A DNA stretch of 59,127 nt, the filler included, from Jimgerdemannia flammicorona (Eukaryota): NCBI GenBank assembly GCA_003990765.1. It is 2 parts of 2 records of this genome, joined end to end, with 100 filler letters (N's around TTAATTAATTAA, not from the genome) between each part and the next. Parts side by side here need not be neighbours in the genome. Positions count along the whole stretch, not along the records: positions 1 to 29,517 come from RBNJ01000494.1; 1 more part is not named here. One strand, given 5' to 3'. The position numbers and the translations under genes are program-made. Positions 3,961 to 34,000 of the stretch are shown here, piece by piece. The notes beneath the pieces are model-generated. The model was not told the DNA's origin, searched no databases, and worked only from the letters and a program-made list of their open reading frames with translations. How positions within the stretch are numbered: the stretch's first letter is position 1; each line of letters opens with the position of its first letter.

Positions 3961-4245
3961 AGAGCGTGCCAGTCATACCTGATCACAGACTTTGCTTGAA
4001 GCCTTGTTTCTTTTCCATTACTGGGGTGCCAATGGCCACCAACCTTGTTAGGACAATATCAGACATGGCTAGGTATATTATTCAGAAATAGCTATACATT
4101 TGCGAATAGTGTATATACACTTTACATAGTCAATCCAAACCCGACAAGGTGGTGCTCTTTATTGTAGTCTGAAGGAGACAGTTGTCATCACACTTTTGCA
4201 GCAATAAAGTTATAATAATAAAATGCAGTTAGCCATTTATTGAAA

Positions 4246-5939
4246 TCAATCTTCACAAATATCATTGATAATTTTGCAAATCTTATTCTCATCATCTGCT
4301 ATAGGCATACCTAGTATAAGCCCCTTTGCTAAGATGTGTTCGTGAGATAAAACTAAAGGATTTTTAAATGAAGCTAGTATCATGGTCCTGATATCTAGCC
4401 TTGATTTGCCTTTCATCTTATCTATTAATAGCTGAAGTTGTAATGTTTTCCGCAGCTGTTCCATATATGCCTTATACAGGGCTTTATGCTGGTCCAATGC
4501 TGCCACTGGTAGCTTGCCATTGTAATGTTCATGATATAGCACCGAGATGAGAGCCTTGATATCCGAAATCAAGACGAACACCAATGGTTCTTTCACCTTC
4601 AGTCTTTTGATAAGAAAGCTGGGATGGATGCATCATATTCCTTTTCGATCTTGAGTTGTTAAAGATAGCGACAGATATCTGTTAAGCATTGTTTAGAAAA
4701 AAAAAAGGTAAAAAAGTCATTAAGTCTGCTGACAATACAATCATACAACCTCCTAAATTATCTCCAAAAGCAACACAAAATCCATTTTCACGATGAATCT
4801 GAGAGAAATAGAAATTTACATAGATTACATACCTCCTTTTATCACTTCAAATACATATGCACTATTAATACTGATCAACAACATCTCTTTTACCAACTGA
4901 AGGCACCCTTTACAAACCCAGTAGTTCTCCAACTGACCTTTGAATAGATAATTCAAGCCTGTTACACTCACCTTACCACAACAGGTACATTTGTCACTAT
5001 CTGACATTCTCAACCTCTTGGTAATATTGGTTTTACCTATATCTGGCATCAATGACTGCTTTGGCAATTCATTTACCTTCTACAGCTCTTTAATCTCCAT
5101 GAATATCATGTGAAATGTATGAATGTCAGGATGAAGTTTCAGATCGTACATCAGTCCTCTAAGAATCAAGTCTTCTACCAGTGTGCACAGACACAGGGTC
5201 AGGCCAAAAATGGTTCTATGGTTATGGAGATATCTCCAGTATGTAGTGTTCATCTTTCGTGCCTTGTCCCATGGCGGATTGCAGGTCAGTAAGACATATA
5301 GCATGATGGATAGGGCCCAGATGTCAGCTGCAAATGGAATGAATCTAACTGATGACCATCGACCAATTCGGGTGATTTATATATAGGCGAACCAAGTACC
5401 GGCCATACTGTGTTGTTTTTGATATTAACTGATATGCTGAAGTCACAAAGTATGATATGCAAGCCTTCTGCACCAGATTTGTATAGCAAATTGTTATGCT
5501 TGATGTCGTAGTGAGCAATCTTATTGTTGTGCAGGTATAATATTGCATTGAGGAGCCCTCTGAAGATGACGAGGATGAGTTTTTGAAGGTCGGCCTCTTC
5601 TTTTGTTTGATCAATAAGGTCAGCCACCAGTCCTTCAGCATGCTCCATCTCGATTGATGTGGAATCTCTAGTCAAATATGCTTGAGAAGCTCATACGATA
5701 TTGAGGTGATCAAGTTTAAGAAGCAAGTTCATCTCATATTCAATTGTGGTGATGTCGAATGGCGTGGCACCTTCCCTGCTTAATATCTTGACCACACATA
5801 TCTCCCCATCTGGTTGACTTCTTTTGAAGACCACACTATAACTTCCGACACTAAGTTCATCACCCAGTTTGACTCTTTCACCTATTGTCTTGCCTTTCCA
5901 AAATTTAGCCTGAACATTTTTAATGGCCTGACTGGTCAT
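4246..5939 (-). pseudogene. Ser/Thr protein kinase pseudogene with C-terminal Cys-rich segment
   Basis: GSYSVVF, VVKIL, HLNIV*, HYDIKHNNLL, LCDFS, GSPIYKSPE and (frameshifted) ADIWAL..PPW kinase motifs, then CTCCG...VCKGC. Probable intron ~4680-4831 (GTATGT...TTAACAG). TGA at 5691, frameshift near 5330, further stops. Confidence 0.85.
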
Positions 5940-6039
5940 TATGAAACAGAAAACTGGAAAATGTGCAAATTAAACAGTAATTAAAAAGTGTACAAAAAAG
6001 ACAGACAAGAAAACATGAAAAAAAAAATGCGAAATGAAT

Positions 6040-6103
<64 letters not shown>

Positions 6104-9100
6104 CCCAAAAATATATACATACCTTGAAATCTTAAGGATGCTGAGTGTAAAGATGTTGAGGAATATAAAAATGTTAGGGAGTATAAGGAGCCTTATAGCT
6201 TAAGGAATAGAGCATAGTTTATAGTGAAAAGTTGTGAGGAGTATAATGTTTGGAGAATTATCAGGAGTAATTGCAGACAGCAAAGATTGCTGGAGAGTAT
6301 GAGGATGCCAGAGAGCATAAGGTACAAGAATGCTGGGGAATATATGATACTTATAGTGTAAGGAGCATAAGTGTAAGGAGGAGCAGAGCATGGGGAAATG
6401 ATAAAGAGTGACAAGCTCACAAAATTCGCTCTAAGTTTGCTTGGAAGTCACTCAGCCAATCAGAGTTAGCCATTTTAATGATGTCACCCATTTTGATGAT
6501 ATCATGACCAATCATAGTCTTCAAATTTTTGTAGGCAAATTTGCCTGCATTTGTCTACAGCCTAAGAGATATATATATAAATATAAAATATACCCCCCTC
6601 TAAAAAAAAATACAAACTAGAATAGAAGTAAACTAGAGCAAACTAAATATGACTAATAGGGTGCTATTTAGATAACTACAGAAGATTAAAATATCCTGCT
6701 TATAAGTATAAAAATAGGTAAAAAATATAGTAAAAGACTGGTAATATAGAAATTTTCACTAGTTGAAAAGTGTTCTGAAATATACAAAATATTTGTAGAA
6801 ATGTAATGTAATGTTATCTATATACATAATCCACTTGTAGATAAGAGATATAACCAATATATATATAAATATAGGTATAATATAAGAGACTTTTAACAGT
6901 CTGAAAAGTATCTTATGATTAATTGAAAAGACTCATTCCTTTAGTATACTGCTTGAACTTCAGCTTTAGAAGAGCTTTAGTAAGTAAATCTGTAATCATA
7001 TACTTTATAGAGATGTATTCTAAGTATATAACACTATTTACTATATATTTATAAATGAAATAGTACTGTATATTGATATGTTTCATTCTGCTGTAGTATA
7101 TTGAGTTCTTGGTGAGTGCTATCATCAATTGGTTATCTTGTTTGATCAGTATAGGGCTTTCTTGAGTGAAGCCAAGCTCTTTTAATAATTTGTAGAGCCA
7201 AATGGCTTCCTTTATTACTAATGACAATACCTGATATTTAGCTTATATAGATAATATTATAATAGAGGATTACTTATATATCTGCTATGAAATAATAGAT
7301 CCTTGGTCACCAATATGGAAGAGGTACCCAGTTATAGATTGATGGTCATCTAAGTCTCTATCCCAATTAGTATTACAAGCACTAGATAGCCAGATACCAT
7401 TACTTCTGCTTAATTTAATATTATTGTCCAGCATGAGCATATAGTATGCTGATTCCTTTAAGTATTGGAAAATCCTCTTAATGGTACTCTAGTATAAATT
7501 ATCATAGTAGGAGAAGTATTGCACCACCTTGTTAATAGTATAGAATATATCAGATCTTGTTCTTAGTATAAGATATATGAGAGAACCAACTGCTTGCCAA
7601 TAGGGAATATCTTTAGCACTATTCTTAATAAGTATATTATTATCATCTTTCTTAGGCATATTGTCAGGCTTCCTTAATTTTACAGAAGTATCTATAGGAG
7701 TGCTAACCAGCTTATATTCACTCATATTGAAGTATTCAAGGATGGCTTTAGTATATATCACTTGCAAGAGGTATATAGCATATACATATATTCCTGTCAT
7801 ATATAATCAATATCCCCAAAAGGAAGGACATATCACCCATATCAGTTATCTTGAATTCTTAGTATAGAGTCTTCTTTAATTTATTAAGCCTATTCTTACT
7901 GACTATAATAATGATATTATCAACCTATATACTAATGAATGCTATACCATCATCATAATACTAGATATACATATATACAATTATCTACTTTGTAATACTT
8001 GAATCTATTGTCAAGAAGATGTTTGTCAATTCTTTTATTTCATAGGTATGCTACTTGCTTAATGCTATATAATCCTTTATATAGTTTATATATGAGCTTA
8101 CCATTCTGGTTGTCATATAGTTCATATTCTTGTAGTTGATGAATATATAATTCAATATCTATATCACTATTCAGAAAGGCTGTCTTAACATCCATCTGAT
8201 GGATTTCTAGATTATATAGTGTACTAATTGTAAGAAGTATTCTAAGCAAAGTAAGCTTGAATACTAGTGAGAATATTTCATCATAATCAATACTGTAATC
8301 TTATAAGTAACCCTTAGCAATGAAGTGAGCTTTATACTACTCTACATCATTATCAGTATTATGTTTTATCCTATATACCTATCTTGACCCAATTACTTGA
8401 CAGTTTGGCAGAAGGGATATCAGATCCCATATACTATTCTCAATGAGTGAATCATATTCTTCATTTATTGTTTATTTCTATTTCTTATCATCAGGACTGA
8501 TTATGGCTTTATTATATGTGCTTGGCTTGTCAGAAGATATTGTAATATATGTACATTCATATGCTTTAGTATAGCTCACATAGTCCTTATATTGCTATCA
8601 TTTAGAGCTTATAGTATATCTCAATAGTTTTCTAAATTGAAATGAGTTTCTTGGCAAATATTAGAGTACTTTTGCTTCTATTTACCCTTCATAGAGGATA
8701 TTTCATTATTGGAGGATTTGCTATCATTATCTTTGATCTCTATTATTCTTGGCTCAGATATGTCTGACTCAGGCATATATAGTGATTGATAATAATTTTA
8801 ATTAACTGCTGGAGAGGTGGATGACAGTTATATTGGTTGCTATATTTGCACTAGCTAGAATATAGATATAGAGGTTTCAACTGATATCTTTAAGCAGATT
8901 TCCAAGTCTTTTTCTCTGAATTATATGTTATAAGAGATAACTATATACTACTTGTATAGATCCCATAACTGGTATATCTTCCTAGAATACCCAAAAAATA
9001 TGTGCTTACTTATCTTAAGTTTGAATTTATCCTGGATAGTATTGCTTTTGTTGAGGACATATGTCTTGCAGTCAAATATTTATAGATAAGATATATCAGA

Positions 9101-9610
9101 CTTGGATCTGCTTCATAATTTTTCAGAGATAAGATCATTATCTCTGAAATACTTATTATTATTATTGTTGCTAGCATCCTTAGTGATCAAGACATGCATT
9201 AATTATATATGTATACTGCAGTGCTTATTGCTTTGGCTCAATAAGAATATGATAGTCCAGTGGCATTTATCATCATATGTACTATTTCTATGGTCATATG
9301 GTTAAATTGCTTAACTATAACATTCTGCTGAGGCATATAGGGAGCCATCATTTGATAGGTTATGCCATATTTCATCAGTAACTGCTTGAACATATGGTTG
9401 ACATATTTGTATTCATTATCTGATCATATAGTATATATTCTATGTCCTGTCTCATTCTCAGTAATTGCTTTAAATTTTTTGAATTTATCCAAGACTTTAC
9501 TCTTCACTGATAGAATATATATATATACTTTATATATATGATCATCAATGAATATGAGAAAATATCTCTTATTAGAATATAATAGTATATATATCAGCCT
9601 ATATATATCT

Positions 9611-11111
9611 TGTCATGTAGTGGTCACTGAGTCCTTCAAATATGCCAGATTCTCTTCAAGATATATCTCTTAGACTAACTTAAGTTTGTTATAAGCAAGT
9701 TTTTATTGGAGTGCCTTCCTAAGGTCTTATAGTCCTCAAACTTCTTATCTTTAACTGTCTTGTTATCTCTTAGATTGCTTGTAAGAAAGTATGTGTAAGT
9801 GAAACCAGAACTGACTTTATTTCAGAGGAAATAAGAGGAGTATTTATACAAAATATAATTTAATAGTTGCTAAGATATAAAGCTAAATATAAATTCCAAT
9901 AACTAAAACTACTAAGTTCCAGGGTTGGTACTGATGGTTGTACAGGTTCAGGATGCTGGTATAATATCAGAATACTGGTATTGGAATAATTTCACATCAC
10001 CTCAGAATATCAGTGCTGGCATTATCCAGTGTTACATCAAAATACTGGTGCTGACATTATTCAGTATAACAAAGAACTTAGAGCAGAAAGTTCAGAATCA
10101 TGGGGGCTTCATCATCATCATCACTGAAGGAGATGAGATCTATAAATTCATCATTTTCACATACTTCGATGTCACATGAGATGATGTCATTGCTGATGAT
10201 ATCATCATATTTGGCAGTGTGGAAATTGGGGGCTCTCCAATCTATGAGATTCTCTTCCACAAAATAAGGGACAAATATGGAGTCTTGGGAAGGTCTAACC
10301 TGGATGCTTGGGCCTTGGAATACTGAGATCAATCCTTGTAAAAATTGGTCTGAGTTGTCCTGAAGGATAGAGTGCCAGAAGTCTTCTACCTCATCACTAT
10401 TGAGAGTGATAGTGGACTGGGCTTCTGTAGCCACCCTAGCTTCTAGTACATTGATATGACGGGATGACAGGTCTCTGAAATCTGAGACTCTAACATACTC
10501 CAAGTTAGGGATTGACCATGGTATATGCCTGAAGATCTGATGGATCTTCTTAGCTGTCCTTGCCTCATATATGTCCATGAGAGTGGCATCTTGTAGCTCT
10601 TGAGAGCTGGCCTGTGGGAACTCCTGGTAGAGGAGATTTCCTATTTCATACTCCTGCCACATTTAGAGGCATTCAGTAGCAATGGTGATACTTATTTCCA
10701 TTTCATAGCAGTAGAGGATGAAGTGATAGGGATCTGCAGTACCCAGATTAACACTAGGAGTCCTTCTTGAGCAGGTCCTCATGACTCTTCTGATGTCTTG
10801 GAACATCCTTTCTTTGACTGAAATACCTTGGTGGTTCCTTGACCTTGAGATTTGGTGGGTAGCAGGCATTTCATTTGTAGTAAGTCTTTGAGCTATTTTG
10901 GGATTGGTGGTTCTTATTGGTTACTGCTACTATGGTTCCTTGATCCTTCTTTTATATTCTTTAAGATACTTATACTGTGGTCACAATGACTCACAGTTGG
11001 TCATCATTGCTCATCTCATATACCATATGATCTTCTTGTGCTCCAATCTAGTGGCTTGCAAGGAAAGGCTGTCTCCTGTGCTGATGTCATCATTCTGGGA
11101 TCACCATTACA
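9611..11111 (-). repeat. 3' LTR of gypsy element
   Basis: TGTCATGTAGTGG...CATTACA on + strand, colinear with 16777-18287. Differences are almost all transitions. Confidence 0.95.
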
Positions 11112-11460
11112 TCTTCCTCCTGAATAAGGATCTTCCTGAGTATTCTTATTCATTGGTCCAGTTCTGAAAAATTTGCTGATCCCATAACCTCTGGCAAGGG
11201 GTCAAAAAGTAGTGTTTATGGGCTGACATCTTCTCTTTATATTTTGGTATGATAGTGAAGGGTTGCTCCCTTCATATAGAGCAAGGGCCTGATTCTGATC
11301 TTGACCAATCAGTTGACAGTTTGAACTCCTCTGACTTTGAAAGTCTCACAGATGAGTAGTTGTCAGTGCCATATCCCTTAGAGAATGGTTCAGACAGATA
11401 GCCTGCTGGTCATGGGATATGCTGTTATGATTCGTGAACTAGAACCTTACAGACAGTCAT
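10078..11460 (-). pseudogene. Gypsy ORF3 of unknown function (~460 codons) extending across the PPT into the LTR
   Basis: ATG at 11460 is in frame with ORF-track pieces 10663-10869 and 10078-10662. The frame has no frameshift and is broken only by TAA/TAG/TGA codons. The 5' LTR copy (17254-18045) has CAA where this copy has TAA (10663) and vice versa (17512). Confidence 0.75.
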
Positions 11461-11479
11461 CACATTTTACTTCTCTTAT

Positions 11480-12690
11480 ATAGGTTTGTGGTACTTCTTG
11501 AGTCTGTTCCTATGTACCATAGTAGGCAGTATGGTCCCTGAGAATTTTCTAAGCCAGAAGGTAGTTCTCTTGATATCTTGCATATAGAAGGGTCCTTCCC
11601 ATTTGGGCTCCAGTTTTCATGACCATAAGGCTTCTACTATATTTTAATACAGTAGAACCTTTTCTCCAATTCGGATGGGTTCTAGGGTCTTGTGATTCTT
11701 TTCTGCATTTTTTCTTGTCAGCACTTGTGACTTGGTGATATAATCTTCAGCCTTCTTCCTGATTTGGTATAGTCTCTGGATTTCTGCATCAACCTATCTC
11801 CAAGTTAGGTCTAGATTTGTTGCTGAGGTTCCATCAGAATCTTCTTCTCCAAAGAGCAGCTCTCTTGGGGTAAAGTGTGTGCTCTGTGATCATATGTCTC
11901 ATAGAATAGAGAGGGCAGTTGGGAGATAGTTATCCCAATTCTCATATGTCTCTGAGATCTTCGCTAGGATGTTTTTAAGGGTCTTGTTGGTTCTCTCTGT
12001 CTGTCTGTTTTCTTGAGGGTGGTACATAGTGGTCTTGATGTGCTGGATCTTGTATTTCTGATATATTATCTCATGGAATCCATTGACAAATTCTGTACCA
12101 TGGTCTATTGTGATTTGCTTTGGTGTCTTGTAGTGGCAGAAGATTTCTCGGTATAGGAAGTCAGCTATAGAGAGGGCATTGGCTTCTTGTAATGCTCCTG
12201 CCTCTATCTATTTGGTGAAGAGGACTACAATAACTATAATATAGTAGTTTCCTGATAGTATTACTGGTAGTGGTCCAATGATATCTATTGTGATGTAGTG
12301 GAAGGGGATAGGCTCAATTCTTAATAATCCAAGTGCCTGGTCTTACTGATCTTGTTTCTGTTTTTGGCACTTGTCACTCTCTTTGACAAATTGGCACAGG
12401 TCTTCTTCCATCTTGGGCCACCACATAGTTCTTCTTGCCTTGTTGTATATATTGGTTCCTTCTAAGTATCCTTGCTCATGTACTTCCTTCATTACTTGAT
12501 ATGTACTTCTTATATTTGGGTATTACTAGCTTTCCTCCTTTTATGAGTATAGTGTTGTCTAGTTCAAACTGTTTTCAAGTCTGGTTGATGATGGTGATTG
12601 TCCAGGGTTCGAGGTGGTTGGGCATCTTCTGCTGCCCAAGGTAGCTGATTAATCCATAGTATAGCTCCTTATTCATGTTGAATAGTCTTG
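11480..12690 (-). pseudogene. Gypsy integrase
   Basis: WWPKMEEDLCQFVKESDKCQK zinc region, IDIIGPLP, ITIDHGTEF, YHPQENRQTERTN and KWEGPFY (GPF/Y) motifs, with stops. Confidence 0.88.
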
Positions 12691-12701: not shown

Positions 12702-13900
12702 TCAGGGTGTCCTTGAGAGTGCATTGGCATTGGTGTTGGTCTTTCCTAAGTGGTGCTTGATGGTATAGTCATACTCTTGCAGTCTGTAGATCCATCTGGC
12801 ATATATTCCTTTGAGGTTCAGAGTGTGGAATAGCCAGACAAGAGCAGAGTGATCTGTTTGAATGGTGAAGTATTTCTTGGCTAGGTAGTAGTAGAACTTG
12901 TCTACTGCCCAAACCACTGCTAAGCATTCAAGCTTACATGACTTGTAGTTCTGTTCTGCTCTGTGGGTACCTCAGCTTGCATGACTTGTAGTTCTGTTCT
13001 GCTCTGTGGGTACCTCAGCTTGCATAGAAGATGACATATTTATGTTCATCTTTCTTCTGAACTAGGACTGCTCCAAGTCCTATAGCACTCGTATCTGTCT
13101 GTAGGATAAATTCTAGGTTCCAGTCAGGTCTTCTGAGGATAGGTGCTTGGGTCAATCTGGTTTTAAGTTTATTGAAGGTTTCTTGGTGGTTCTTGGTCTA
13201 TTTGAATTTAGCTCATAGATAGGTGCTGCAATATTGGAGTATCCTTTGATGAATCTTCTGTAGTAGCTGGTCAGTCCAAGGAAGGTGTGGACTTCTGTAG
13301 TTGTTCTGGGTCTTAGGTAGGCTACAACAGCCTCGATCTTCATGGGGTCTGTATGGATTCCAGTCTGGTTGATGAGGTGTCCTAGGTAGGTGATTTCTTG
13401 AGCTGTAAACTTGCATTTCTTGGGCTTGATGTAGAGACCATACTCCTTGAGCTTCTTGAGGGCTAGCTGTATGTAATTGACATGTTCCTGTGCAGTATTG
13501 CTGAAGACTCTGTTCATTATTTGCTGAAAACTTGCTGGGGCATTGCATATTCCAAATGGTATTCGCAGGTAGATATAGGTGGCATCAGGTGTGATGAAGG
13601 CTGATTTCTCACTAGCATCTTGAGTGAGACTGATCTGATGGAAGCCTGAGAACAGATCCAAGGCAGTATAGTATTTGGCTTCACTTCCAAGGGTGGTAAG
13701 GATTTCTTGAATATTTGACAAGGGCTGCCTATCCTTCCTGGTAATGGCATTGAGCTTTCTGTAATCAATACAGAGTCTTGGTACGAACTCTCCAGGTTTG
13801 CTTCCTTTCTTTGGGGCAAGGACAATGGGTGAAGCTCAGGGGCTGATAGCTTGCTTGATAATTCCGGCTTCTTCCATTTCCTTGAGTTCTGCTCACAGCC
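12702..13900 (-). pseudogene. Gypsy reverse transcriptase + RNase H, catalytic YxDD segment deleted
   Basis: LCIDYRKLN, ALDLFSGFHQI, IPFGICNAPASFQ, YLGHLI, FLGLTSYYRRFI, ILQTDTSAIGLGAVL, QTDHSAL, NANALSR. YxDD block absent between NRVFSN and TAQEH. 43-bp tandem duplication at ~12932-13025. Confidence 0.93.
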
Positions 13901-14155
13901 ACTCTCTGTAGGCAGGTGGTATAGGTCTGGCTTTCTGGTAGATGGGCTTGGTATCACCAGTGTCAACTTCATGGTAGTACTTGGGTTCTTGATTGTGGAT
14001 ATCTCTGAAGTCTGTAGCAAGTACTCCTTCATTCTGGTGCAGGATCTTGAGAAGTTGTTCCTTCAGGGGAAAGTTTTCTCCAATGGTATATATATATGTA
14101 CTTATTCTGGTCCTTGTCTTTTTTGGGTAATCTTAGTGGCAGCATAGGCTCCTCT

Positions 14156-14566
14156 TCCAGTAGATCCAAAGCTTTGTTCTTCTCTCTTGGTCTTGATGAG
14201 TTCAATGGCTTCAATGATCTTGGGTTTCTTGATTTTGTGGATCAGCATTTGGCCAATCCTGTCATGCTTCTTGACTTCAAAGGAGGTGGTGGGGTTGTGA
14301 TTTCTGACTATGAGGAAGATCTTGCCAGTGTAATCAGGGTCAATTACTCCTCCTTTAACTGAGATTTCACTTTTGGCCAGACTACTCCTGGTCTTGATGA
14401 TTCTGGCATAGTTCTCTGGCAGCTTGACTCCAATTCCAGTACCAAGTAGGGTGGTGGTCTGTGGTTCAAGGGTAGCATCTTGAATGCTAGTAAGGTCTAT
14501 TCCTATGGCTCCTTCAGTCTTGTATTCTGGGATCTTGGCTTTGGGGTGAAACTTCTTGATCTTGAG
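14156..14566 (-). pseudogene. dUTPase domain inside gypsy pol
   Basis: Hand translation (not in ORF track): LKIKKFHPKAKIPEYKTEGAIGIDL...GTGIGVKLPENYARIIKTRSSLA...GGVIDPDYTGKI...DRIGQMLI...TKREEQSFGSTG, i.e. all five trimeric dUTPase motifs. Confidence 0.93.
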
Positions 14567-14999
14567 GGTGATGTCTGATTCTTATTCCTCCTCATCATCG
14601 CTGCCAGCTTGGAGCTCTGGGTGCTGGTCATCTTCTTCAGCTTTCCTTTTTGCTTTGGCAGCTTCTTACTTATGTTTCTATTGGCAGATTTTCCTGACTT
14701 CACTGATACAGGACCAGCAGTCATTCAGGTGTTCAGAGCAGTACATCCTAGTACCATGGGGGCATCTTTCTTGAGGGGTATAGCCATTAATGATCTTGTT
14801 GTACTACTGCTCATCTGTGAGCTTGAGTGTCTTGTTCTTGTTCTTGTTCATCAAGTGCATGAAGACCTCTGTGTCTTCTTCATCTCCTTCCTCCATGTCA
14901 GATAGAACTCCTTTGTGGACATTGATAGAGACTTGTACCTTTCTTCCTCTGTAGTTAATCTGTATCTTCTGGGCATTGAGGTCAATGATGGCCTTGGCC

Positions 15000-16720
15000 T
15001 TATGAAGCTATTGATTGCCAATGAGGATATCATAGTTGGTGGTGCTTATAACAATCACATCTACTGGGATGGTAGCTCCTTTTATCTTGATGGGGACTTC
15101 TCAGATTTTGCTAAGGGGGGTAGCTCATGTACCATCTGCTGTGATATAGACCATCTTGGTGGACTCTTCAATGTCCCAGCCTAGGCAGTCAATTGCCTTC
15201 TTACTCATGAGACATTCTCCAGCACTAGTATCAATAATGGCATCAAAGATACAGTCTTTGATCTGACATGGGGTATAGGCTGATGTCTTGCACTGGTCTT
15301 CAGATTCTTCATCTGAGTTCTCGAATTCTTCCTGTGCATTGTGAGCTTCTACAATCTTATACTCTTGATTCTTGGTGATAGTTGTAAGTCCTACTCTCAA
15401 CTGCTGTCTGAAGGCAGGGACTTCAGCTAGCTGTCCAAAGGTGGCATTGACCTTCTGTTCCTTGAGATCCTTGTAGATATCATACTAGTGGATCTTGGTC
15501 TTGTGCAGCTTCTGTTCCTTCTTGCTTTCACTTTCTCCTGAGACTGGAGTAGTGCCTTCAATAATTTGGTGGGCAGCTTCATCTAACTCCATGTCTTGAT
15601 CAATCTCCTTGAGTTGGATCTTGCTTTGAATAATAACAGCTGGGGTCTTCTTTGATCTTCCAACTAGCTTGCTGTTGCTCTTCTTGTCATAGGGCTTGGA
15701 CCAGGTTCTGGTACCTTCAGTAGCAGAGTAGAATTCAAGCTCCTTATAGTATTCTTCATCATCAGTGTCACCAATCTCCTTGATGACTACTATATTGGTT
15801 TGTTCTCTGGTTCTGCTAGTATTGCTTAGTTGGGCTTTGTGTCTCATTTTGGTCATGCAACTCTTTGCATAGTGGCCTTCTTCTCCACATCTGAAGCATA
15901 TGATATTGCATTCTTCTGTAGCAGCTGCAAATATCTGCACTAGTCTCCTGTTGGTGCTTTGGACTTCTCTAACAACATTACCAAGGTGTGCAGTCATCTC
16001 GGCAAACTGCTTGGTGAGTTCTTCCACTGGGTCAGCTTTTGCTGTCTTGGGAGTAGGTGGGATTAGTTGTCTGTTTACAACTGTGGCAAGTAAGATACTA
16101 GTTGGCTTTGATGGCTCCATCTTAATGTCAGTTATTTTCTCCATTGAGTGTTTGACTGAGTGTCTGGCAGTTCAATATCTCTGTGCAAAGACCACTTTCT
16201 GATCAAGGGTTAGTACAGCTGGGGTAGACTGGATTGCTAGGGCAATTTCAGGGTGAACTCCTTTGAGAAAGGTTGAATCTACTATTTGTTCCTTGAGGTA
16301 GTCATCATAGCCAGCCAAGACAATCTGGTGGCAGATTCAGGTATAGAATAAGTTGGAATCTTCACTAAGTCTCTGGTAGATAGTATTGAGTTGATCTTTG
16401 AGAGCTTGCTTGATCTCTTCAATATAATATATTGTTCTGAGGAAGACCTTCATGTTGGCAAGTTTGGCTACACCAGTATCAGCAATAGTGGCTACATTGA
16501 ACTTATCTCTGGCAGGTCCTCTGAGGCTGACTGGTAGAAGGGCCAATTGAGTATCTACACCAAGGGCTCATATGGCAGCAAATTGTTCAAAGTCTTCAAT
16601 GAAGGTCAGGATTGACTCTTCAGTAGTATATCCATAGAATGTGGGGGGATGTATTTTCATCTTATCTTGAATTCTTGGGTGACTCTTGTAGTCAGGGTAG
16701 TTGTTGTGGAGGTTATTCGT
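15000..16720 (-). pseudogene. Gypsy gag (CCHC zinc knuckle) and aspartic protease
   Basis: SLRGPARDKF gag core, CFRCGEEGHYAKSC knuckle (~15856-15899), AIIDTSAGECLMS protease site (~15210-15245). In-frame stops. Confidence 0.88.
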
Positions 16721-16776
16721 TTTTCAGCTTAAAAGTGAGGGATTCATCTTGAATCACCAGCCAATAGGCACCAAGT

Positions 16777-18287
16777 TGTCATGTAGTGGTCACTGAGTCC
16801 TTTAAATATGCCAGATTCTCTTCAAGGTGTATCTCTTAGACTAACTCAAGTTTGTTATAAGTAAGTTCTTATTGGAGTACCTTTCTAAGGTCTTATAGTC
16901 CTCAAACTTCTTATTTTTAACTATCTTGTTATCTCTTAGATTGCTTGCAAGGAAGTGTGTATAAGTGAAACCAGAACTGACTTTATTTCAGAGGAAATAA
17001 GAGGGGTATTTATACAAAATATAATTCAATGGTTGCTAAGATATAAAGCTAAATATAAATTCCAATAACTAAAACTACTAAATTCCAGGGTCAGCACTGA
17101 TGGTTGTACAGGTTCAGGATGCTGGTATAATTCAGTATCACATCAGAATACCAGTGCTGGAACAATTTTGCATCACCTCAGAATGCCAGTGCTGGCATTA
17201 TCCAGTGTTACATCAAAATACTAGTACTGGCATTATTTAATATAACAAAGAACTTAGAGCAGAAAGTTCAGGATCATGGGGACTTCATCATTATTATTAC
17301 TAAAGGAGATAAGATCTGCAAATTCATCATTTTTGCATGTTTCAATGTTACACAGGATGATGTCATCACCAATGATGTCATCACATTCAGTGATAGGAAA
17401 ATCGGGAGCTCTCCAATCTATGAGGTTCTCTTCCACAAAATAAGGGACAAATGTGGAGTCTTGGGGAGGTCTAACCTGGATGCTTGGGTCTTAGAATACT
17501 GAGATCAATCCTTACAGGAATTGGTCTGGGTTGTTCTGAAGGATGGGGTGCCAGAAGTCTTCTACCTTATCACTATTGAGAGTGATAGTGGACTGGGCTT
17601 CTGTAGCCACCCTGGCTTCTAGTGCATTGATATGGCAGGATAACAGGTCTCTGAAATCTGAGACTCTAACATACTCCAAGTTAGGGATCAACCATGGTGC
17701 ATGCCTGAAGATCTGATAGATCTTCTTAGCTGTCCTTGCCTCACATATGTCTATGGGAGTGGCATCTTGTAGCTCTTGAGGGCTGGCCTGTGGGAACTCC
17801 TGACAGAGGAGGTTTCCTATTTTGTACTTCTGCCATATTTGGAGGCATTCGGTAGCAATGGTGATCCTTGTTTCTATTTCACAATGGTAGAAAATGAAGT
17901 GATAGAGATCTGCAGTACTCAGGTTAATACTAGGAGTCCTTCTTGAGCAGGTCCTCATGACTCTTCTGATGTCTTGGAACATCCTTTCTTCGACTGAGAT
18001 ACCTTGGTGGTTCCTTGACCTTGAGGTTTGGCAGGTAGCAGGTATTTCATTTGTGGTAAGTCTTTGAGCTATTTTGGGATTGGTAGTTCTTGTTGGTTGC
18101 TACTACTGTAGTTTCTTAATCCTTCTTTTATATTTTTCAGGATGCTTATGCTGTGGTCATAATGACTCACAGTTGGTCATCATTGCTCATCTCATATGCT
18201 GTATAATCTTCTTATACTCCAATCTGGTGGCTTGCAAAGAAAGGCTGTCTCCTGTGCTGATGTCATCATTCTGGGGTCACTGTTACA
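16777..18287 (-). repeat. 5' LTR of gypsy element
   Basis: TGTCATGTAGTGG...TGTTACA on + strand; followed on the minus strand by the PBS. Confidence 0.95.
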
Positions 18288-18498
18288 ATCTGTATATATA
18301 AGGTCAAGGATCCCAGATATGTACTTTAATCATTCTTTGAATGGTCACTGGGATGCTTTATTTGTCATATAATCCTTACAGAAACTATCATATTGATATA
18401 TTATCAGTAATCCTCTGACAGATTCACTTCTTATTATATATTCAAGGCTCATCTTACTGATATATCCTAAGTATTAATATTACATATTAGATGCATCA

Positions 18499-20787: not shown

Positions 20788-23700
20788 GTCACTTGGACTC
20801 TGCTATTTATTACCTGTCTATTAAAAATTTTACAGTTTACCCTCCCACTATCTGATCCCCATAGGGGTGCCACTCCTCCTACCTACACAAATAAAGACCA
20901 CTTTCCTACCCGCAACCCCAACCCTCTCCCCACTCTGCCTACAGATTTGTTCCACCAAATGATACCTTTGACCCCTCTTCAACCCCCAACCCAGCCACCA
21001 GTCCATCAAGGTGTCTTCCATAAGGCTACACTACCTCATCAGCCTGACCTCGGAGCCAAGTTTCCTCCCATTCTCAAAAACAAATAACCAGTGACTGGCC
21101 AGCCTCACCCAAATGGCCAAAGTCCAACCTAACATCAGCCATTCCTTCCCCACCCCCCCCTCCAGTCTGCCCCTTAAATCCTCCCAATGCCCCTGCACAC
21201 CAGCTCCCCTACACACTACTCCCAGATGGTCTCCAATGTTCTGCCAAAAGGTACTAAGTACCTCACACTCTCCTAGCCAATGTTCAGGTATCTGTACATA
21301 TCCCCCTTCCTGCCCTACATTATAACACTCTTTACAGTCAAAGCAGTCTCCCTCAATAAGATGACCAGAGTGGAAGTTGAGTATGACATTTCACCTCAGC
21401 ACACACCACCAGACCACCCAGTATGTACTTCAGTGGCAGCCACCTCCTCACCTTGGCACTCCAGGCCCAAATGCTATACTAGTCCTACTCCTTATCGATT
21501 CCTACACCCTGCTAACTGCTAGGCCACAGATTCTGGCCTGGTCTCCATTGGCATTCAATCCCATCACCAATGTCAAACTCAATTAAGCGAATGCCACCTA
21601 GTAACACTTGGTCCCATCTCTACATCACTGGGTCCCAAGCCTCCTCTCCTTTATTTCTCTGTCACCTAATTCCAATATAGTATACCCCCTCTACCACTCC
21701 CCACCAGAAGCCTTTGCATCACAATTGTCCAGAGTTCTGAAGGCCCACAAGTACTAGGAGATCACCCATTGAACCCCTCGGAGAGGACCTCATCTCCCAG
21801 ACTTTCTACAATAGGGGAACCCAACCACCCCCTCTCAACTCCACTGCTCTCTTCAGTCACCAAGCTCTCAAGCAGTGTAGCCTCTTAGGAAAGTTGACCA
21901 GCCCAAGTCCCCCACTCACCACTGGTAAGGACAAGACCTCCCAGCTGATCTGACTCCACCTTCCAGCCCAGATCCACCCCTTGGCCAGCTTCATCAATTG
22001 CTTCACCACCCAAGCTAGGAAGTCCAGATGATAAGCCAGATACCATACCTTCAGCAGCCAATAAACATTCAGAATCGAAACATGTCCTGCCAGAGACAAT
22101 TGATGGCCCCCCCAACTCCACAGGGCCTCCTCCCAAATACCAACCTGCTGCTCCCACCAAAGTCTGGGCAGAACTGACCCAAATACTGACAGATAGATAC
22201 CCAAGTACCATACCATCTCACCTGCAGGGACAATTGCACTAATAATCTCCCCACCCACTAGACCATTGCCTAATACTATTGTTTCGCACTTATGCTAATT
22301 AAGCCTAGTCCCAGAGTTCACCTTATACCACTCCACTGTTTTCATGAGCTTCTCAACATCTACAACTGATCTCAGACTGACCACTATGTCATCTGCAAAT
22401 GCCCCTACTTTCCACCCAATGCCAAAGATAGAGAGCCCCACTATCTTCTGCCTAATTCTGTCCATGAAGGGCTCCAGAGACAAAGCATACAAAATGGGGG
22501 ACAGTGGGTCCCCCTGGGGCACCCTCCTACCCAGGGGAAATGCCAACCCTCTATGTCCATTACACATGAGTGCCACTCTACTTCCTTCCAGTAGGCTGAC
22601 CATGGCAGTTCTGAACTGTTGTGGGACTCTAAACCTATCCAAAACTTTTACCAACCAGACCTATTGCACTCAGTCATAGGCCTTCTCCTGGTCCAAAAAG
22701 ACCAGATGCCCATCTAGTCCACTGGCTTATACCCCTTCAATAACTCCATACACCCATACTGTGCTATCTCTGATGAGCCAGCCTCCAACAAAGCCCTGCT
22801 GCTCCTCACCCAAGACTTACTGGACTATCTTTTGCAACCTTGTGACCACCACTTTGGTAACCAACTTTCTGTCCATATCCAGTAGCATAATCGGCCTCCA
22901 GTTCTTCCAGTCCTCTCAGCTTCCTTTGTTCTTATAAAGTAATGTCACCAACCCTAGATCCTGTTCTCCCACCCACCTCCCCATCAGTAGAATCCAATCA
23001 CACAGTGCCATCATCTCACCCAATATTCCAGAGACTCCCACCATCCTTTTCCAGAAGTCCCAGGGCAGACCATCCTCCCCAGGCACCATACCTAAGATTG
23101 TCACAGCAAGAACCTGATGGATCTCCTCCTCTAGTACTGGCAGTACTAGGTCACTCAATCCATCTGCTCAGGTAGGGTGCCAATCCTCCAATACTTGATC
23201 AATGTCCTCAGCATCTGCCCCACCCTCCTCCTCACTCCACAATCTACTCCAATGCTCCTTTAATGATCCAAGAATGTCTTATACCCCATGTACTAATGAA
23301 CCATCAGCATTAAGCACCCCCCACCTTTGCTGCACCCTTCTCACCTGAAGGGTCCTTATAAGAAACTTTGAGGGCCACTCTCCTTCCTCCAGCCCCTGCC
23401 AATGAAGCCTTGCTGCCAGACCCTGGACCCTTACCTCTTCCTCATTCCACAGTACCTGTTATAGTTCAGCTACCTCCATTCTTAACCTTATCAATCGCCA
23501 GTCCTCCTCTCCCTCCAATGTCACCAGTCTTACCCTATCCTCCAAGAGTCTAGATAGTCTACTAGATGCCCACCACACCTGCCACCTCCTCTGCCTCCCC
23601 GCCTCCATACCAGCCTCACTCCAGAAGGCCCTGGCCATCTCCTTCATCCTCATCAACCAAATATCAACTGTGACACCTTCCTGCCTCCAGTACTCTACCT

Positions 23701-26672
23701 GCATTTGAACAACTTCAGCCCATTTACCCCATCAGATCTTATCATCTAGTAAGGAGGAATTGAGACGCCAATGTCCAGGCCCATCCCCACTCCCCCCAAA
23801 ATGTCCCTGCCCCAAAAGCCCCCAATGATCTGACCAAGAACACCACTCCACCTCCAGTGACTTCCAAACATCCAGGCCCCAGCAGCTGGCTGTCAGAATC
23901 TAATCAATCCTCATCTCCAGGCCCCTGGCCCAGTGTGTGTACACCCTCCTATTCCCCCAACATTCCCTACCCACATCCACCAGAGCACTCAGTCTTTCCA
24001 CTTCCTCCTATGCTACCAGTCCTCCACTCCAACCTACAGCTCCTCATCCTCCATCAGTTCTATTTCTCAATATGTCTCTGACCATATTGAAGTCCCTGCT
24101 GAGCACATCAACTCCAACCTCTACAAGAATTCCACTCTCCTGTAGGCCTGTCACCCAATTCACCTGCTCACTCTGTACTGCAGAGCAGTAATAGGAGCCC
24201 ACCACTACTGGCTCCCAACCTGTGCATATCCACTCTCCCCAGACCAATCTATCCCCTCAGCTCTGCACATCCCATATCTCCCCTCTGCCCTTCCACACCA
24301 GAATTCCAACCTTGCCCTTCCAAACTGCCTCACCTCCCCACTCCTGCATCCATTTCAGTCTATTCAAGTCATCCTCACACCTGACATCCTGCAAGAGGAA
24401 GAGATTAGCCTCCAATCCCTTCAGCCAAGTAAAAATATTCTTACATTGATAAGCACCCTGTAACCCATTCACATTCAGAGAAAAAATGTTGATTGTACTA
24501 TTCATAAGGGAAATTATATAGTTTCAGATGTATTCTCTACTGCTCTATGTCCACTTTCTTCTGTGCCCTATCCAGGTTGTGCTCGGCAATAGCCTCTGCT
24601 TCCTCAGTCCTCTTAGCCTTCAATTCAGCCAGGATTTCAGCCATCTCCCCATCCTCCTTTTCCTCAAACTCCTTGTGGTACTCCAAACAAGCCTCTTACC
24701 AGAGCTACAGTCCATGCCACTTAGTCCAACAGTAGGCAGTCTGCTCACCCGCCACAACTACCAGAGCAGCTTCCCTCTCCTTATCTACCTCATACCCCTC
24801 CTCCTCCAAGTATACCACCAGAATTTCTGCCTTCAATGCTGCCACCACTCCATCACCCTGCAGGATCCTTACCCAATACTCATCGCTCATCACTCAGAGG
24901 TCAACTTCCCCCAGCTCTTCCACTGCCAAGTTGTTCATCATCTGGCATACCCAGAGCAAGTTTTCCACCTCCTTTCCTCCTGGGGTTGCTGGCCTCCCTC
25001 CATCCAACATCATAATATCAGCCCCTACACTTGCTGACTCATTTTATTCTGCCTCTGGGACATCCACCAATTCCTCTTCCCCAGTCACCTCTACCAATCC
25101 CCCCTTCTCTACATTTGGGACTCCAAAGCACACCTGCTGAGCACTGTGCATTGGCACATCCTCCATCACCCTACCTCTCACCACCAGACCCCTTCTGATA
25201 AGGAGAGAGGGTGAAGGTGAATCCTCCCAGATTTCCTCCCAAACCTCCAGTGTGCCATCTTCATACAGATTCTTGCTTGGCACCTTCACAGCCTCCACCT
25301 GCCCCCCCTCCTCATTCCTGCCACTACTAGTAGCCCAGACACTCACCTCAGTACCTCCAGTGGTTGCACTATCACTTGCCTTTCTCATCACCTCCATTCC
25401 CATTTTTGCCAACAATTCCCTCTGCCTTCTGTGCCCTTGGGACCTCTCCCACACCTCCTTGTTGATGTGGACTTACTTTCCTCCAACCACCTCAAGATGT
25501 ATCACCTCTTCGAATGCCTTCTATACTTTTGCCCTCCTTTCCACTGCTCCACTCAACTCCTCCAGCACTTCTAGCAGATCCTCCTCCTCCTCCTCCTCCT
25601 CACTCCCCTTTACTCTCATCATCTTGCACAAGATAGCCCCCCATACTATCACTGAGGGCCAGTCCCAAGCCTTCCCAGTAGCCTCCCACCCAGCCAGCCA
25701 AATCCTGATGTCAATATCCCCTGTCCGGAGGGAGATTCCTTCCTACACTCTGAACCCAATATCGACTACCTCCCTATACTCTGCCATGATCTCCTTGACT
25801 CTCTTCCTCATCTCTACAGTAGTAACAGTGGGAACTCCTTTCACCAGAAGCTGCACTACTCTTGGGTCTCACTGCAGGTATCTCATCATCAGTACACACA
25901 CCTTGCCCACTTTCATCTCAGTCTTCAAAACCTCCTCCAGTGGCCCAGTCTCCTCAAATCCCACCTCCACCCCTTCTAGGCCCTTCAGGAACTTAACAGA
26001 TACTGCACCACTCATCTGCTTCGCAATCAGCCCCAGAACCATTTTTGCTGTCACTGCTAAGCCCCAGAAACACATCGTGACTGCAAATTCTGAGATTGAC
26101 TTCTTGAGTAATGGAGCCACCGCCAGTCATATTATACCATCTGCCAGGTCTCTGGGCCTCATGCCCTTCCCACTGCTTGGCTCACCATCAGCAGTCCCAT
26201 CTAGATTTTTTGCCAGATCACCTGTCACACCCCCATCAGCAGTCTCCACCTCAGCTGCTATCCCCCTAGCTCTACCCCTATGGCCCTCTGGAGAGATATT
26301 CCCATGAGGTAGCTGCCTTGTAGCCCTCACTGGCACCTTCTCCCCCCTCAGCCAGCTCTCCAGTCCAGCTCTCTGCTGACCCCCCTTCACCTTCTCTGCA
26401 AAACTCGCTCTGCCAGACCCTTGACCTTCAGCTCTGCCCCCTCCTCCACCATATCTTCCTGCCAGCAGGCCCCTCATACTTCCCCCCAAGCCAGGGCCTC
26501 TCCCCACTTACTGCCATTCAAATGCTCCAGGGCCACCCTACCCAGTATGCACCTCAGAATACTTGTTGGTTGCTATGATACTAGTAGCTTGTCTCCAGAA
26601 ACTGTGTCAAAAGTGTTGTCAAAAGATTGTGTAACCTGAATGTTACTGGAGAAAGATGTCGAGCATCACACC
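20736..26672 (-). mobile_element. Full-length L1/Tx1-like LINE copy A (ORF1 + APE-RT-zinc ORF2), decayed
   Basis: Poly(T) 20736-20784; degenerate TSD CCCTTT(T/C)ATT(G/A) at 20725-20735 and 26673-26683. ORF2 start MNSTINIFSLNVNGL (24505), DFN, WSDH, PGEDG, FLDQEKAYD, PQGDPLSPILY, FADD, YLG, C-terminal CFDC..EHWLGEC. ORF1 ~24530-26570. Confidence 0.93.
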
Positions 26673-31064: not shown

Positions 31065-34000
31065 AAAGAACAATACAGCTACCTACCATATAAATTCTTC
31101 CTCCACTCTTTTTACAAATATAATTCACCAGATTCAGATGGCCCCCCCAATCTGGTCCCCACTCTCTCTACCAACCATTCAAAATGTCAAGTAATAACCA
31201 TTACCAATGTACTCCCCTAGCTCCAGCTGCAACCTACTAACCTTTGCTGGAGATTCCCCCATCTCTCTCCTTCCCCCTCTATCAGGGGTCACAATTCCAT
31301 TTTGCTAGCAATACTGTGCCAAAACTCCCCCAAAACTTCACACTCCTCTAGCCAATATTCAGATGTTTGTATCACTCCCCCTTCCTGGCCAATATCCATA
31401 CTTATACTCAAATATATCATCTGTCACCAAGTGTTCTAACCAATAGTTCAGCATCATATTCAGTCTTAGAAACCTCCACCATACTACCCAGAACTTGGGG
31501 GGAAGCCATTGCATCACCTGCTTGCTTCAAAGCCAGAGACCATTCTAGTTCCACTCCTTGCCAATCTCTATCCTTTACCATGCTATAGGCCACACATCCC
31601 TCCTGAGCCCCTATATACATTCCATTCTATTGCCAAGCTGAAATTCCTTCACCAATACACCTCCTAGCAATAGCCAGTCCCATCTACATCCATAGTCCCC
31701 AGTCCTCCTCTCTCTCATAACCTCTCCACCAAAGTCTAATTCTCCTTATACTATCCACCACTCTCTACCAAAAGCTTTTATAATACATCCTCCTGCTCCC
31801 ATCCATGGCCACCATTGCAAGCAGATCACCAGTTACTTCTCAAGAGGAATATCTGACTTTCCACACTCTTTATATGAGTGGTACCCACTTCTGGCCTCTC
31901 AACTCACTCACCCTCTTCAGTTACCATACTCTCAGACAATAAAGATGCTTGGTAAAGTCTACCAAGCCCAGTCCTCTACTATCAACAGACATAGTCAGAA
32001 CCTCCCAGCCTATCTGACTTTGCTGTCTAGCCCAAATTTATGATCTTGCCATCTTCAGAAGTTGCCTGACCACCCACATTGGGAAGTTTAGATGATATTC
32101 CACATACTACAGCTTTGGTAGCCAATATACATTCAGCACTATCACCCTTCCTGCTAAGGATATATACTGACCACCTCATCTCAAGAGAACATTCCCCTAT
32201 ACTAGTAGTCACTGTTCCCACTATATACAGAGCAGAAGGGACCCATATACCAAAAAATAGATCTCCAAGTACCAGACTGGTTTTTCTGCTAGGACCACTA
32301 TTCTAATCATGTCACTGCCAACTATTCCACCAACTAGCACCAGAGTCTCACATTTGTACCAGTTGAGTTAAGTATCTGAGCCTCTCTCAAACCAATCCAC
32401 TGTCCTCCTTAATTCCTCCACATCTTTTAATAAGTCCAGTCTAACTACTATATCATCTATAAAAGTCCCAACCTTCCAGTTAATCCCCAAAATATCCAAA
32501 CCCCCAATTTGATACCAGATCCTGTCCAATAGGGGCTCCAAGGAAAGGACATATAAAATAGATGATAAAGGATCTCCTTGTAGTACTCTATGATCTAGCC
32601 AAAAAGTCACACTCCTGTGCCTATTCACCACTAATGCTGCTCAACTATTCTCCAATAGACTGATTAATGACCTTCTGAACTTTAGAGAAACTCCAATACA
32701 TTTCAGTACTCCTTCTAGCCAGACCCTCCTCACCTTATTGTATATCTTCTCCTGATTCAGAAATACTAACCAACTATTAACCCCACCTGCCCAAGCCTCT
32801 TCAATCACTCCATGGACTCAGACAGTTTTATCTCGGATCAACTGAATATCAAAAAATCCCCTCTACTCCACTTCTAGTACCTACTGAGTGATCCCCTGTA
32901 GCTTAGTCATCAAGATCTTTATCACCAGCTTATAGTCTATATCAAAGAGTATGATCAGTCACTAGTTCTTCCAATCTTCTCTTCTCTCCTTATTCTTATA
33001 GAGTAAGGAGACTAGCCCTAGGCTCCAATCTAAGTTTCAGATTGAAGGACCTCATCACTTATTGCTGTCATTTCCCCCAATGCCATCTCCACTCCAGCCA
33101 TCTTCTTTCAAAAATCCCAAGGAAGTCCATCCTCTCCTGGAGCTGTCTCCTTACTTATTGAAGCCAAGACCTTGTGTACTTCCTCCCCCCACACTGAGTC
33201 TAGATACCAATCCTGCAACTGCCATTCAATGTTCAGAGCATCCTCACCCCCTTCTTCTTCACTACATAAATTTCCCCAATAAGTTCTCAGTAATCCCAAA
33301 ATCTTAGGAGTCTCTGCCACTATCTCTCCATCCTTATCCAAAATACTATTCCACCACTATCTGGTTCTCTGGGCTTGGAGTAACTATAAAAGAAATCTAG
33401 TGGGCCTCTCCTCTTCCTCCAACTCCTGCCACCATAACCTTGCCACTATCCCCTTTAGCTGAACCTCTTCCTCCATTCATAATACTTTCTTAAGCTCATT
33501 TACTTTTTTTTGTATCCATAGAATTCACCAATTGGCTGCCCTCCAATTCTCCAGTAACTCTACCTATCTCTCCAGAAGTACTGCCAATCTCTGTAAAGCC
33601 CATTGTACTCACTGCTGCCACTGAGCACTCCTTTCTTTCTCTGCCTCACTTTAGTATCTCTGAGCACTTGATTTCAGCTGTGACTAGCAATCCTCAATCC
33701 TCAATCTCTGCTTTTGTCACCTATCAATCTTTCTAATAACTTTCACCTCTCAGTCTGTCTATAAGAAACTATCCTCCAATAAAGAAGAATTCAGTTGTCA
33801 ATGTCCAGATCTATCCTCACTTTCCCCAAATCTTTCACTTCCTAATAGACCCCAGTGATCCAACTACAGGCACCAAACTACCTCAAGCACATCCCAGACA
33901 TTCACTCTCCAGCACTCTGCCATCAATATCCAATCAATCTTAGAGCCCAGCCCTGTCACCCAGTGAGTATAAATTCAGCAATCTACTCAGAACTATTGCC

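What the first reader, a model, noticed from the sequence alone, without database searches (positions are those of the whole stretch)
10078..11460. Gypsy third ORF (~460 aa) reads through the PPT and fills two-thirds of the LTR
A single frame starts immediately after integrase (ATG 11460), crosses the PPT/LTR boundary at 11111 and ends at 10078. It is broken only by stop codons explicable as C>T changes of CAA/CAG/CGA. The two LTRs carry different stops in the C-terminal 263 codons, so that part reconstructs as intact. It is not env-like (no obvious TM or signal peptide) and has a helical core (WQEYEIGNLL..ARTAKKIHQIFRH) and an acidic tail. The layout recalls retroviral U3-overlapping accessory genes (nef, sag, bel). 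It could be a transactivator or anti-silencing factor.
Basis: partly seen in the sequence, partly recalled or inferred. Interest (0 to 1): 0.72.

Follow-up and report, generated by a model that had tools for sequence, protein, structure and literature searches.

The report
Accessory gene inside a retrotransposon LTR
A jumping gene in a probably fungal genome carries an extra protein gene of an undescribed family, apparently with its own promoter, wholly inside its terminal repeats; the gene is real and shared by very distant jumping-gene families, but it is about 263 codons long, not the 460 first proposed.

Summary
The 460-aa read-through ORF is not real. Nine of its 12 internal stops are shared by 29-31 of 30-31 family copies, and no copy shows the sense codon that C>T decay would leave. 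The first 197 codons are non-coding (post-integrase spacer, PPT, LTR start). The real gene runs from ATG 10869 to stop 10078 (263 codons), wholly in U3 of both LTRs and of solo LTRs. It has no family-wide stop, 11 of 12 shared indels keep frame, and a TATA box lies 87 nt upstream. Homologues (28-80% identical) start at the same Met-Pro in three other Gypsy families of this genome and in metagenome proteins; dN/dS is about 0.14 against an intact environmental relative. In a chromovirus family the same TATA-ORF unit sits just outside the LTR, ending at the PPT. RT trees reject one clade for the carriers (AU p=0.012), which suggests the gene moved between lineages. The protein has a helical core, an acidic tail, no transmembrane segment and no known sequence or fold match. 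Best guess: a self-promoted nuclear regulator (transactivator or anti-silencer); function untested. The scan noted this gene family before on other DNA of this genome.

The parts
16777..18287 (-). 5' LTR (1511 bp, TG...CA); 4-bp target-site duplication AGAT flanks the element
   Evidence: LTR pair differs by 149 transitions and 2 transversions in 1494 sites
17254..18045 (-). Copy of the U3 accessory ORF in the 5' LTR (start codon decayed, 2 internal stops)
16757..16773 (-). Primer-binding-site-like sequence (TGG-initiated); priming tRNA not identified
15488..16171 (-). gag stretch with CCHC zinc knuckle
   Evidence: Pfam zf-CCHC E=6.4e-06
14105..14581 (-). dUTPase between the protease region and RT
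   Evidence: Pfam dUTPase E=3.4e-26
13155..13835 (-). Reverse transcriptase (part)
   Evidence: Pfam RVT_1 E=1.7e-23
11473..12498 (-). Integrase (broken), no chromodomain hit
   Evidence: Pfam Integrase_H2C2 E=6e-11, rve E=2.1e-07
11123..11470 (-).
   Evidence: 4 family-wide stops; 1-2 bp indels between subfamilies; transversion divergence as low as integrase; long-range helices predicted but z only -1.3
11112..11122 (-). Polypurine tract
9611..11111 (-). 3' LTR (1501 bp)
10950..10956 (-). TATA-like box 1 (TATAAAA), 87 nt upstream of the accessory ATG; inferred promoter of the accessory gene
   Evidence: 25 of 25 family-A rows, 13 of 16 family-B rows; position
10078..10869 (-). U3 accessory gene, 263 codons, one internal stop in this copy; basic N-terminus, helical core, acidic tail
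9910..10077 (-). Fast-evolving U3 region with ~35-nt imperfect repeats (candidate enhancer or response elements)
   Evidence: 35- and 70-nt indels among copies; not alignable between subfamilies A and B; repeats D3/D4
9816..9848 (-). TATA box 2 (TATAAAT, 9848) and AATAAA (9821): main LTR promoter and poly(A) signal, inferred
   Evidence: block shared with families C and D, Z=12.0 and 4.6 against shuffles

Best explanation
Shown: a conserved, protein-coding accessory gene of an undescribed family (about 260-340 aa) lies in U3 of this dUTPase-bearing Gypsy element, so every LTR and solo LTR carries it. Inferred (expression): it is a separate transcription unit. TATA1 starts an RNA of about 1.1 kb that covers the ORF and ends at the LTR's AATAAA. 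That signal lies 27 nt after TATA2, at about the start of the genomic RNA, so it need not cut that RNA at the 5' end. Inferred (function, my committed guess): the protein is a nuclear regulator of the element's own transcription. A basal TATA1 promoter makes it first; its basic N-terminus and helical core engage LTR DNA or chromatin; its acidic, aromatic-rich tail recruits co-activators or lifts methylation silencing at TATA2, in the manner of foamy-virus Tas or VANC. Inferred (history): the TATA-ORF unit moved between co-resident Gypsy lineages, and it lies inside or outside the LTR according to where the PPT sits.
For: Coding: no family-wide stop in 263 codons against 8 and 20 in the other two frames; 11 of 12 shared indels in frame against 1 of 9 in the downstream LTR; A-vs-B transversion ratio 0-fold/4-fold 0.35, CI 0.18-0.88; L189 vs three family-C copies dN 0.22-0.24, dS 1.55-1.63; homologous Met-Pro start in families A, C, D and in P0002, P0009, P0010, P0013. 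Own promoter: a TATA-like word at a fixed distance before the ATG in A (-87, 25/25), C (-71 to -73, 24/25, the miss truncated), D (-62, 21/25, the 4 misses truncated) and L189 (-80), although these upstream regions show no alignable similarity. Regulator-like build: net charge +8 in residues 1-45 of P0002, tails -10 to -26, maximal 19-residue hydropathy 0.64-1.07; acidic W/F/Y/L-rich 39-aa tiles in 5 of 5 proteins (tile rule recalled, no null run); tail disordered in the model. The host decays these elements by deamination (CpG o/e about 0.05; C>T 10.7%, transversions about 0.2%), which fits methylation silencing. Transfer: family C has a chromodomain (E=3.8e-13); RT monophyly of A+C+D is rejected, p-AU 0.012; the ORF core is 40% A-C against 33% A-D while RT groups A with D.
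Against: No direct evidence of transcription, DNA binding or activation. No DNA-binding fold was recognised. The basic N-terminus is weak in family C proteins (+1, -1) and the core is net acidic (-7 to -15), which is unusual for a DNA binder. Within family A, transversion pN/pS is about 1.2 for singletons and the shared ones are 9 nonsynonymous, 0 synonymous (6 in the tail). The codon-position test A-vs-B is not significant (1.63, CI 0.86-2.98), and subfamily B has three core positions with stops in 9-12 of 14 rows, with sense alleles still present. A retroviral 3' ORF long assumed to be a Tat-like activator proved not to be one (PMC12193657, abstract). The AU test used a quick tree of 33 of 69 rows chosen after seeing the first tree.
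Confidence: 0.45

Rival explanations
1. Rev/CERV-like post-transcriptional factor: the protein binds a structured RNA in the spacer after integrase and promotes export or packaging of genomic RNA.
For: The A/B spacer is as conserved as integrase and folds with long-range helices. C and D share a 250-nt non-coding element at about 80% identity with a closing stem and both-side changes. Arg-rich N-terminus in A and D. Precedent: CERV of Cer1 (PMC10309623, abstract).
Against: A's spacer is unrelated to the C/D element (nhmmer) although the A and C proteins are the closest pair. Fold z only -1.3. Both-side changes can arise from CpG decay. The C/D element also occurs in a family in which no ORF homologue was seen (L140, L141).
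Confidence: 0.2
2. Antagonist of a host defence that acts by protein binding (for example RNAi or a chromatin complex), using the conserved short tail motifs, without binding the element's DNA.
For: Acidic core; short hydrophobic motifs conserved in an otherwise length-variable tail in A and C; sharing between distant lineages suits a factor that is not sequence-specific. TE accessory proteins are predicted to have many host partners (PMC13547354, passages).
Against: No match to a known suppressor family; family D lacks the A/C terminal motif.
Confidence: 0.2
3. Negative regulator or copy-number control factor made from a second promoter (comparable to Ty1 p22 from Ty1i, recalled), or a product that benefits or addicts the host.
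For: Separate promoter; retention in solo LTRs (3 of 29 loci) would raise its dose with copy number.
Against: Carrier families reached very high copy number (4061-6426 first-look candidates); no gag homology.
Confidence: 0.12
4. One reading: one 460-aa protein that starts after integrase and reads through the PPT; or, at the other extreme, a chance open frame with no function.
For: The frame is continuous without frameshift in this copy, and the ATG at 11460 is present in most aligned copies.
Against: Nine family-wide stops without sense alleles; six of them also in subfamily B; homologues begin at codon 198; purifying selection on the core.
Confidence: 0.03

Closest known systems
MMTV sag, the U3 ORF of a betaretrovirus (PMC4667437, passages)
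   Same: ORF mostly or wholly in U3, present in both LTRs and in solo LTRs, under purifying selection; a promoter inside U3 has been described for sag.
   Different: Here a Ty3/Gypsy retrotransposon of a probably fungal host without env. No Pfam match and no transmembrane segment, whereas Sag is a membrane protein (recalled).
Foamy-virus tas/bet with internal promoter (PMC7390438, passages)
   Same: 3' accessory ORF with a second promoter; family C and L189 place TATA-ORF just before the PPT; acidic tail as expected of an activator.
   Different: No sequence or fold match to Tas found. In families A, B and D both promoters lie inside the LTR. Transactivation is untested.
Sense additional ORFs (aORFs) of LTR retrotransposons: plant env-like ORFs, Athila, Bagy2 (PMC7264820, first third of text); Oikopleura Tor env from an internal promoter (PMC4402516, passages); bdelloid ORF3s shared between distant retroelements (PMC5408684, abstract and section 3.4)
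   Same: Conserved third ORF downstream of pol; exchange between distant retroelement lineages; an internal promoter in Tor.
   Different: Those aORFs are described in the internal region between pol and the 3' LTR, and are mostly env-like or enzymatic. This one is inside the LTR in three of four families, is not env-like, and belongs to no described family.
VANC anti-silencing proteins of VANDAL/MuDR DNA transposons (PMC13547354, passages)
   Same: TE-encoded accessory protein in a methylating host; short, fast-evolving repeats lie next to the gene.
   Different: VANC belongs to plant DNA transposons and is related to MAIN. No match was found here, and binding to the repeats is untested.

Membership tests
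Ty3/Gypsy LTR retrotransposon | Paired TG...CA LTRs, PBS, PPT, short target-site duplication | tested here: met
Ty3/Gypsy LTR retrotransposon | Order gag-(protease)-RT-RNase H-integrase | tested here: met
   zf-CCHC, dUTPase, RVT_1, integrase in that order; nearest RT relatives carry PF17919/PF17917. Protease and RNase H were read by eye, not scanned.
Chromovirus branch | Chromodomain at the integrase C-terminus | tested here: not met
   No Chromo hit in the window's integrase; met in family C
env-like ORF3 (errantivirus or plant aORF-3S) | Transmembrane segment or signal peptide | tested here: not met
   Maximal 19-residue hydropathy 0.64-1.07 in 4 intact homologues
env-like ORF3 (errantivirus or plant aORF-3S) | Located between pol and the PPT | tested here: not met
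   Inside the LTR in A, B and D; met only in family C and L189
MMTV sag-like U3 gene | ORF within U3, kept in solo LTRs, purifying selection | tested here: met
MMTV sag-like U3 gene | Homology to Sag; membrane superantigen | tested here: not met
   No such Pfam family among 35 members scanned; no transmembrane segment
Foamy-virus Tas-like transactivator | Expression from a second promoter | tested here: inconclusive
   Conserved TATA-like words; no transcript data
Foamy-virus Tas-like transactivator | Sequence or structural homology to Tas | tested here: inconclusive
   No hit in Pfam, PDB sequence or fold searches; the model is only moderately confident
Foamy-virus Tas-like transactivator | Binds and activates the LTR and internal promoters | not testable with these tools
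   Needs a reporter or binding assay
VANC-like anti-silencing factor | Binds element-specific repeats and causes local demethylation | not testable with these tools
   Repeats are present; binding untested
Rev/CERV-like export factor | Cognate structured RNA element in the genomic RNA | tested here: inconclusive

The most novel reading that the evidence does not exclude
A portable cassette (TATA promoter plus ORF) encoding a new class of transactivator or anti-silencing protein has been passed between chromoviral and non-chromoviral Gypsy lineages in one fungal host group. In some lineages it was absorbed into the LTR, so that each LTR and solo LTR is a self-contained gene able to switch on silenced elements in trans: a foamy-virus-like two-promoter circuit evolved in retrotransposons.
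Probability: 0.25. Interest if true: 0.85.

Novelty: new variant of a known kind. Interest (0 to 1): 0.63.

Why it matters
LTRs of retrotransposons are treated as non-coding, and regulatory accessory genes with their own promoter are a mark of complex retroviruses. A conserved orphan gene inside fungal Gypsy LTRs, shared across RT lineages only 37-39% identical and moving in or out of the LTR with the PPT, gives a direct handle on how LTR elements may resist methylation silencing and how LTRs gain genes. Intact natural homologues exist, so the question is testable. Annotation pipelines that mask LTRs would miss a gene present in very many copies.

Tried and rejected
460-aa read-through ORF: rejected. 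Within-family dN/dS: uninformative, since copies form a star dominated by post-insertion C>T/G>A decay. Pfam: only sub-threshold hits, ATG5_HBR and Apo-CIII, rejected as chance. PHROGs 0 of 4 proteins. PDB sequence profile 0 hits at E<=5. ESM Atlas: unnamed cluster at 0.91 with low recognition, named clusters <=0.86, structure TM <=0.38 by query; no family taken. Fold searches: best Z 5.9 (71 aligned, rmsd 2.3) and 4.4 (83 aligned, rmsd 3.5), both to one photosystem subunit; helix-turn-helix proteins at Z about 4 did not recur with the better model; Foldseek none at E<=0.001. This does not show the fold is new. Upstream ORF of the gag-dUTPase family in L140: not homologous (probability 0.1%). 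Rfam and ARAGORN on spacer elements: nothing credible. First metagenome scan found no locus, the second found one. No RNA holder listed; four runs laid as contigs cover the whole element in short pieces and say nothing on expression. A homodimer prediction was not obtained. Rows left out: L001, L031, L048, L078 (same places as other rows); L065 and L075 from subfamily B (intermediate and long-branch). Literature: searches listed no paper on an LTR-internal gene in fungal Gypsy elements; 'ORF within the LTR' had 0 occurrences in the 20 rows listed. The library lacks most subscription papers and Repbase entries; no supplements were read, and they could hold element maps.

Full report
Setting. 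The finding lies in a decayed Ty3/Gypsy element on the minus strand: LTRs 18287-16777 and 11111-9611, a 4-bp target duplication, PBS and PPT, and zinc knuckle, dUTPase, RT and integrase in that order. The 231-Mb genome G000 holds several long single-exon Chitin_synth_2 matches, so the host is probably a fungus; I did not determine its lineage. Repeats here are heavily deaminated: CpG o/e about 0.05, C>T 10.7% and G>A 9.9% against transversions near 0.2%; the LTR pair differs by 149 transitions and 2 transversions.

The observation. The frame 11460-10078 exists and holds 12 internal stops. I aligned the window copy, its 5' LTR and 29 other copies (30 loci fetched from the 40 best of 4061 candidates, one being the window itself). 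Nine stops (codons 12-178) are present in 29-31 of 30-31 rows with no CAA, CAG, CGA or TGG allele. In integrase, where decay is the known cause, no position is fixed (highest 21 of 27) and all 8 stop-prone positions keep sense alleles. Six of the nine recur in a subfamily about 75% identical, which also differs by 1-2 bp indels in the spacer. The first 197 codons are therefore non-coding. The three other stops in the window copy (177, 180, 266) are sporadic (3, 4 and 7 of 31 rows).

The real gene. From ATG 10869 to TAA 10078 no position reaches 50% stops, against 8 and 20 in the other frames. 27 of 31 rows keep the ATG, all keep the terminal TAA, 4 are fully open and 7 are frameshifted. Shared indels keep frame in 11 of 12 cases, against 1 of 9 in the LTR downstream (some events are alignment-split). 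Between subfamilies A and B the transversion ratio at 0-fold to 4-fold sites is 0.35 (CI 0.18-0.88), though the codon-position test is not significant, and within A the test is uninformative or adverse. Protein searches found 5, 5 and 12 relatives, all unnamed or 'hypothetical' metagenome proteins. Using these as queries showed two more large families in G000, C and D. All full-length forms begin Met-Pro at the homologous ATG. An intact environmental locus, L189, gives dN 0.22-0.24 and dS 1.55-1.63 against three family-C copies.

Anatomy across families. In A/B and D the ORF is inside the LTR (1.5 kb and 2.35 kb), and 3 of 29 family-A loci look like solo LTRs with 4-bp duplications. In C and L189 the stop codon abuts the PPT and the LTR (803 bp in C) follows. 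In each family a TATA-like word sits at a fixed 62-87 nt before the ATG, although those upstream regions do not align, while a second TATA plus AATAAA block is shared by A, C and D. The order TATA1-ORF-variable U3-TATA2-AATAAA is constant; only the PPT moves. I infer a separate RNA of about 1.1 kb in A. No RNA holder was listed, so this is untested.

History. RT identity between A and C or D is 37-39%, no higher than to unrelated Gypsy RTs. C has a chromodomain. An AU test on 33 RTs rejects A+C+D as one clade (p=0.012) and A+C (0.026) but not A+D (0.65), while the ORF core is closer between A and C (40%) than A and D (33%). Exchange between co-resident lineages is the simplest reading; ancient presence with losses is not excluded. 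Sharing of ORF3 types between distant retroelements is known in bdelloids (PMC5408684, section 3.4).

The protein. It has a basic N-terminus in A and D, a core of about 200 aa modelled as mostly helical with a C-terminal beta-hairpin (pLDDT 73, pTM 0.65), a disordered acidic tail of variable length with acidic-aromatic tiles, and no transmembrane segment. No family or fold match was found. The tail motif FxxLI recalls p53's activation motif (recalled, not tested).

Mechanism. I commit at 0.45 to a self-promoted nuclear regulator that activates or de-silences the LTR, by analogy with foamy-virus Tas, made first from a basal internal promoter (PMC7390438, passages), and VANC (PMC13547354, passages). 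Rivals: a Rev/CERV-like RNA factor (0.2), a host-defence antagonist (0.2), a negative regulator or host-directed product (0.12). That the gene is real I hold at about 0.97; that it has its own promoter at about 0.75. A caution: the snakehead retrovirus 3'ORF was assumed to be Tat-like and was not (PMC12193657, abstract).

Novelty. The layout is closest to MMTV sag (PMC4667437, passages), and aORFs are known in the internal region of LTR retrotransposons (PMC7264820, first third read). My searches listed no report of an LTR-internal gene in fungal Gypsy elements, within a library that lacks most subscription papers. Earlier notes of this scan describe LTR-internal genes on other pieces of the same genome; I saw them after reaching my reading and count them as agreement, not evidence.

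Noticed in passing
L144:6562-6813; L130:3175-3426; L140:3776-4081 and 8019-8324; L141: A 250-300 nt non-coding element shared at about 80% identity by Gypsy families C and D (directly after integrase) and by a third family with gag, dUTPase and protease-like ORFs and no RT or integrase hit nearby. Predicted 8-bp closing stem and a hairpin with both-side changes; contains a GTTCGAAC word resembling a Pol III B-box (recalled). No Rfam or tRNA hit; 1969 first-look candidates in G000.
   Followed up: partly
window 11123-11470: Family A/B spacer is as conserved as integrase, unrelated to the C/D element by nhmmer, yet also has a GTTCRAAC word and predicted long-range helices.
   Followed up: partly
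window 14105-14581; L130, L132, L144: All ORF-carrying families examined also carry a dUTPase before RT, including the chromovirus family C; it may have been exchanged too.
   Followed up: no
window 18288-18300 and 9600-9610; L032-L060 flanks: 4-bp target duplications and strongly AT-rich, often (AT)n flanks suggest a target preference.
   Followed up: no
L079, L082: Loci with a second, partial copy of the ORF's 5' part near a full LTR (rearranged or tandem LTR pieces); L065 falls between subfamilies A and B in the tree.
   Followed up: no
window 12931-13025: A 43-bp tandem duplication inside the RNase H region of this copy's pol.
   Followed up: no
window 39197-44430: At least 24 diverged copies of a 160-190 nt repeat in DNA without CpG depletion, probably a host gene with repeated exons; two ORFs tested had no Pfam hit. 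Lies beyond base 29517, off the window's first contig.
   Followed up: partly
window 37510-38379: Protein kinase ORF on the minus strand (Pkinase E=6.5e-22).
   Followed up: no
window 47272-59100; also 21200-26300 and 31300-34500: Four related, strongly GC-skewed RT-bearing (LINE-like) elements; two form a head-to-head inverted pair about 82% alike.
   Followed up: no
L140:7343-7810 and 9310-9999: A helical, acidic-tailed ORF upstream of gag in the gag-dUTPase family; not homologous to the U3 gene by profile comparison.
   Followed up: partly
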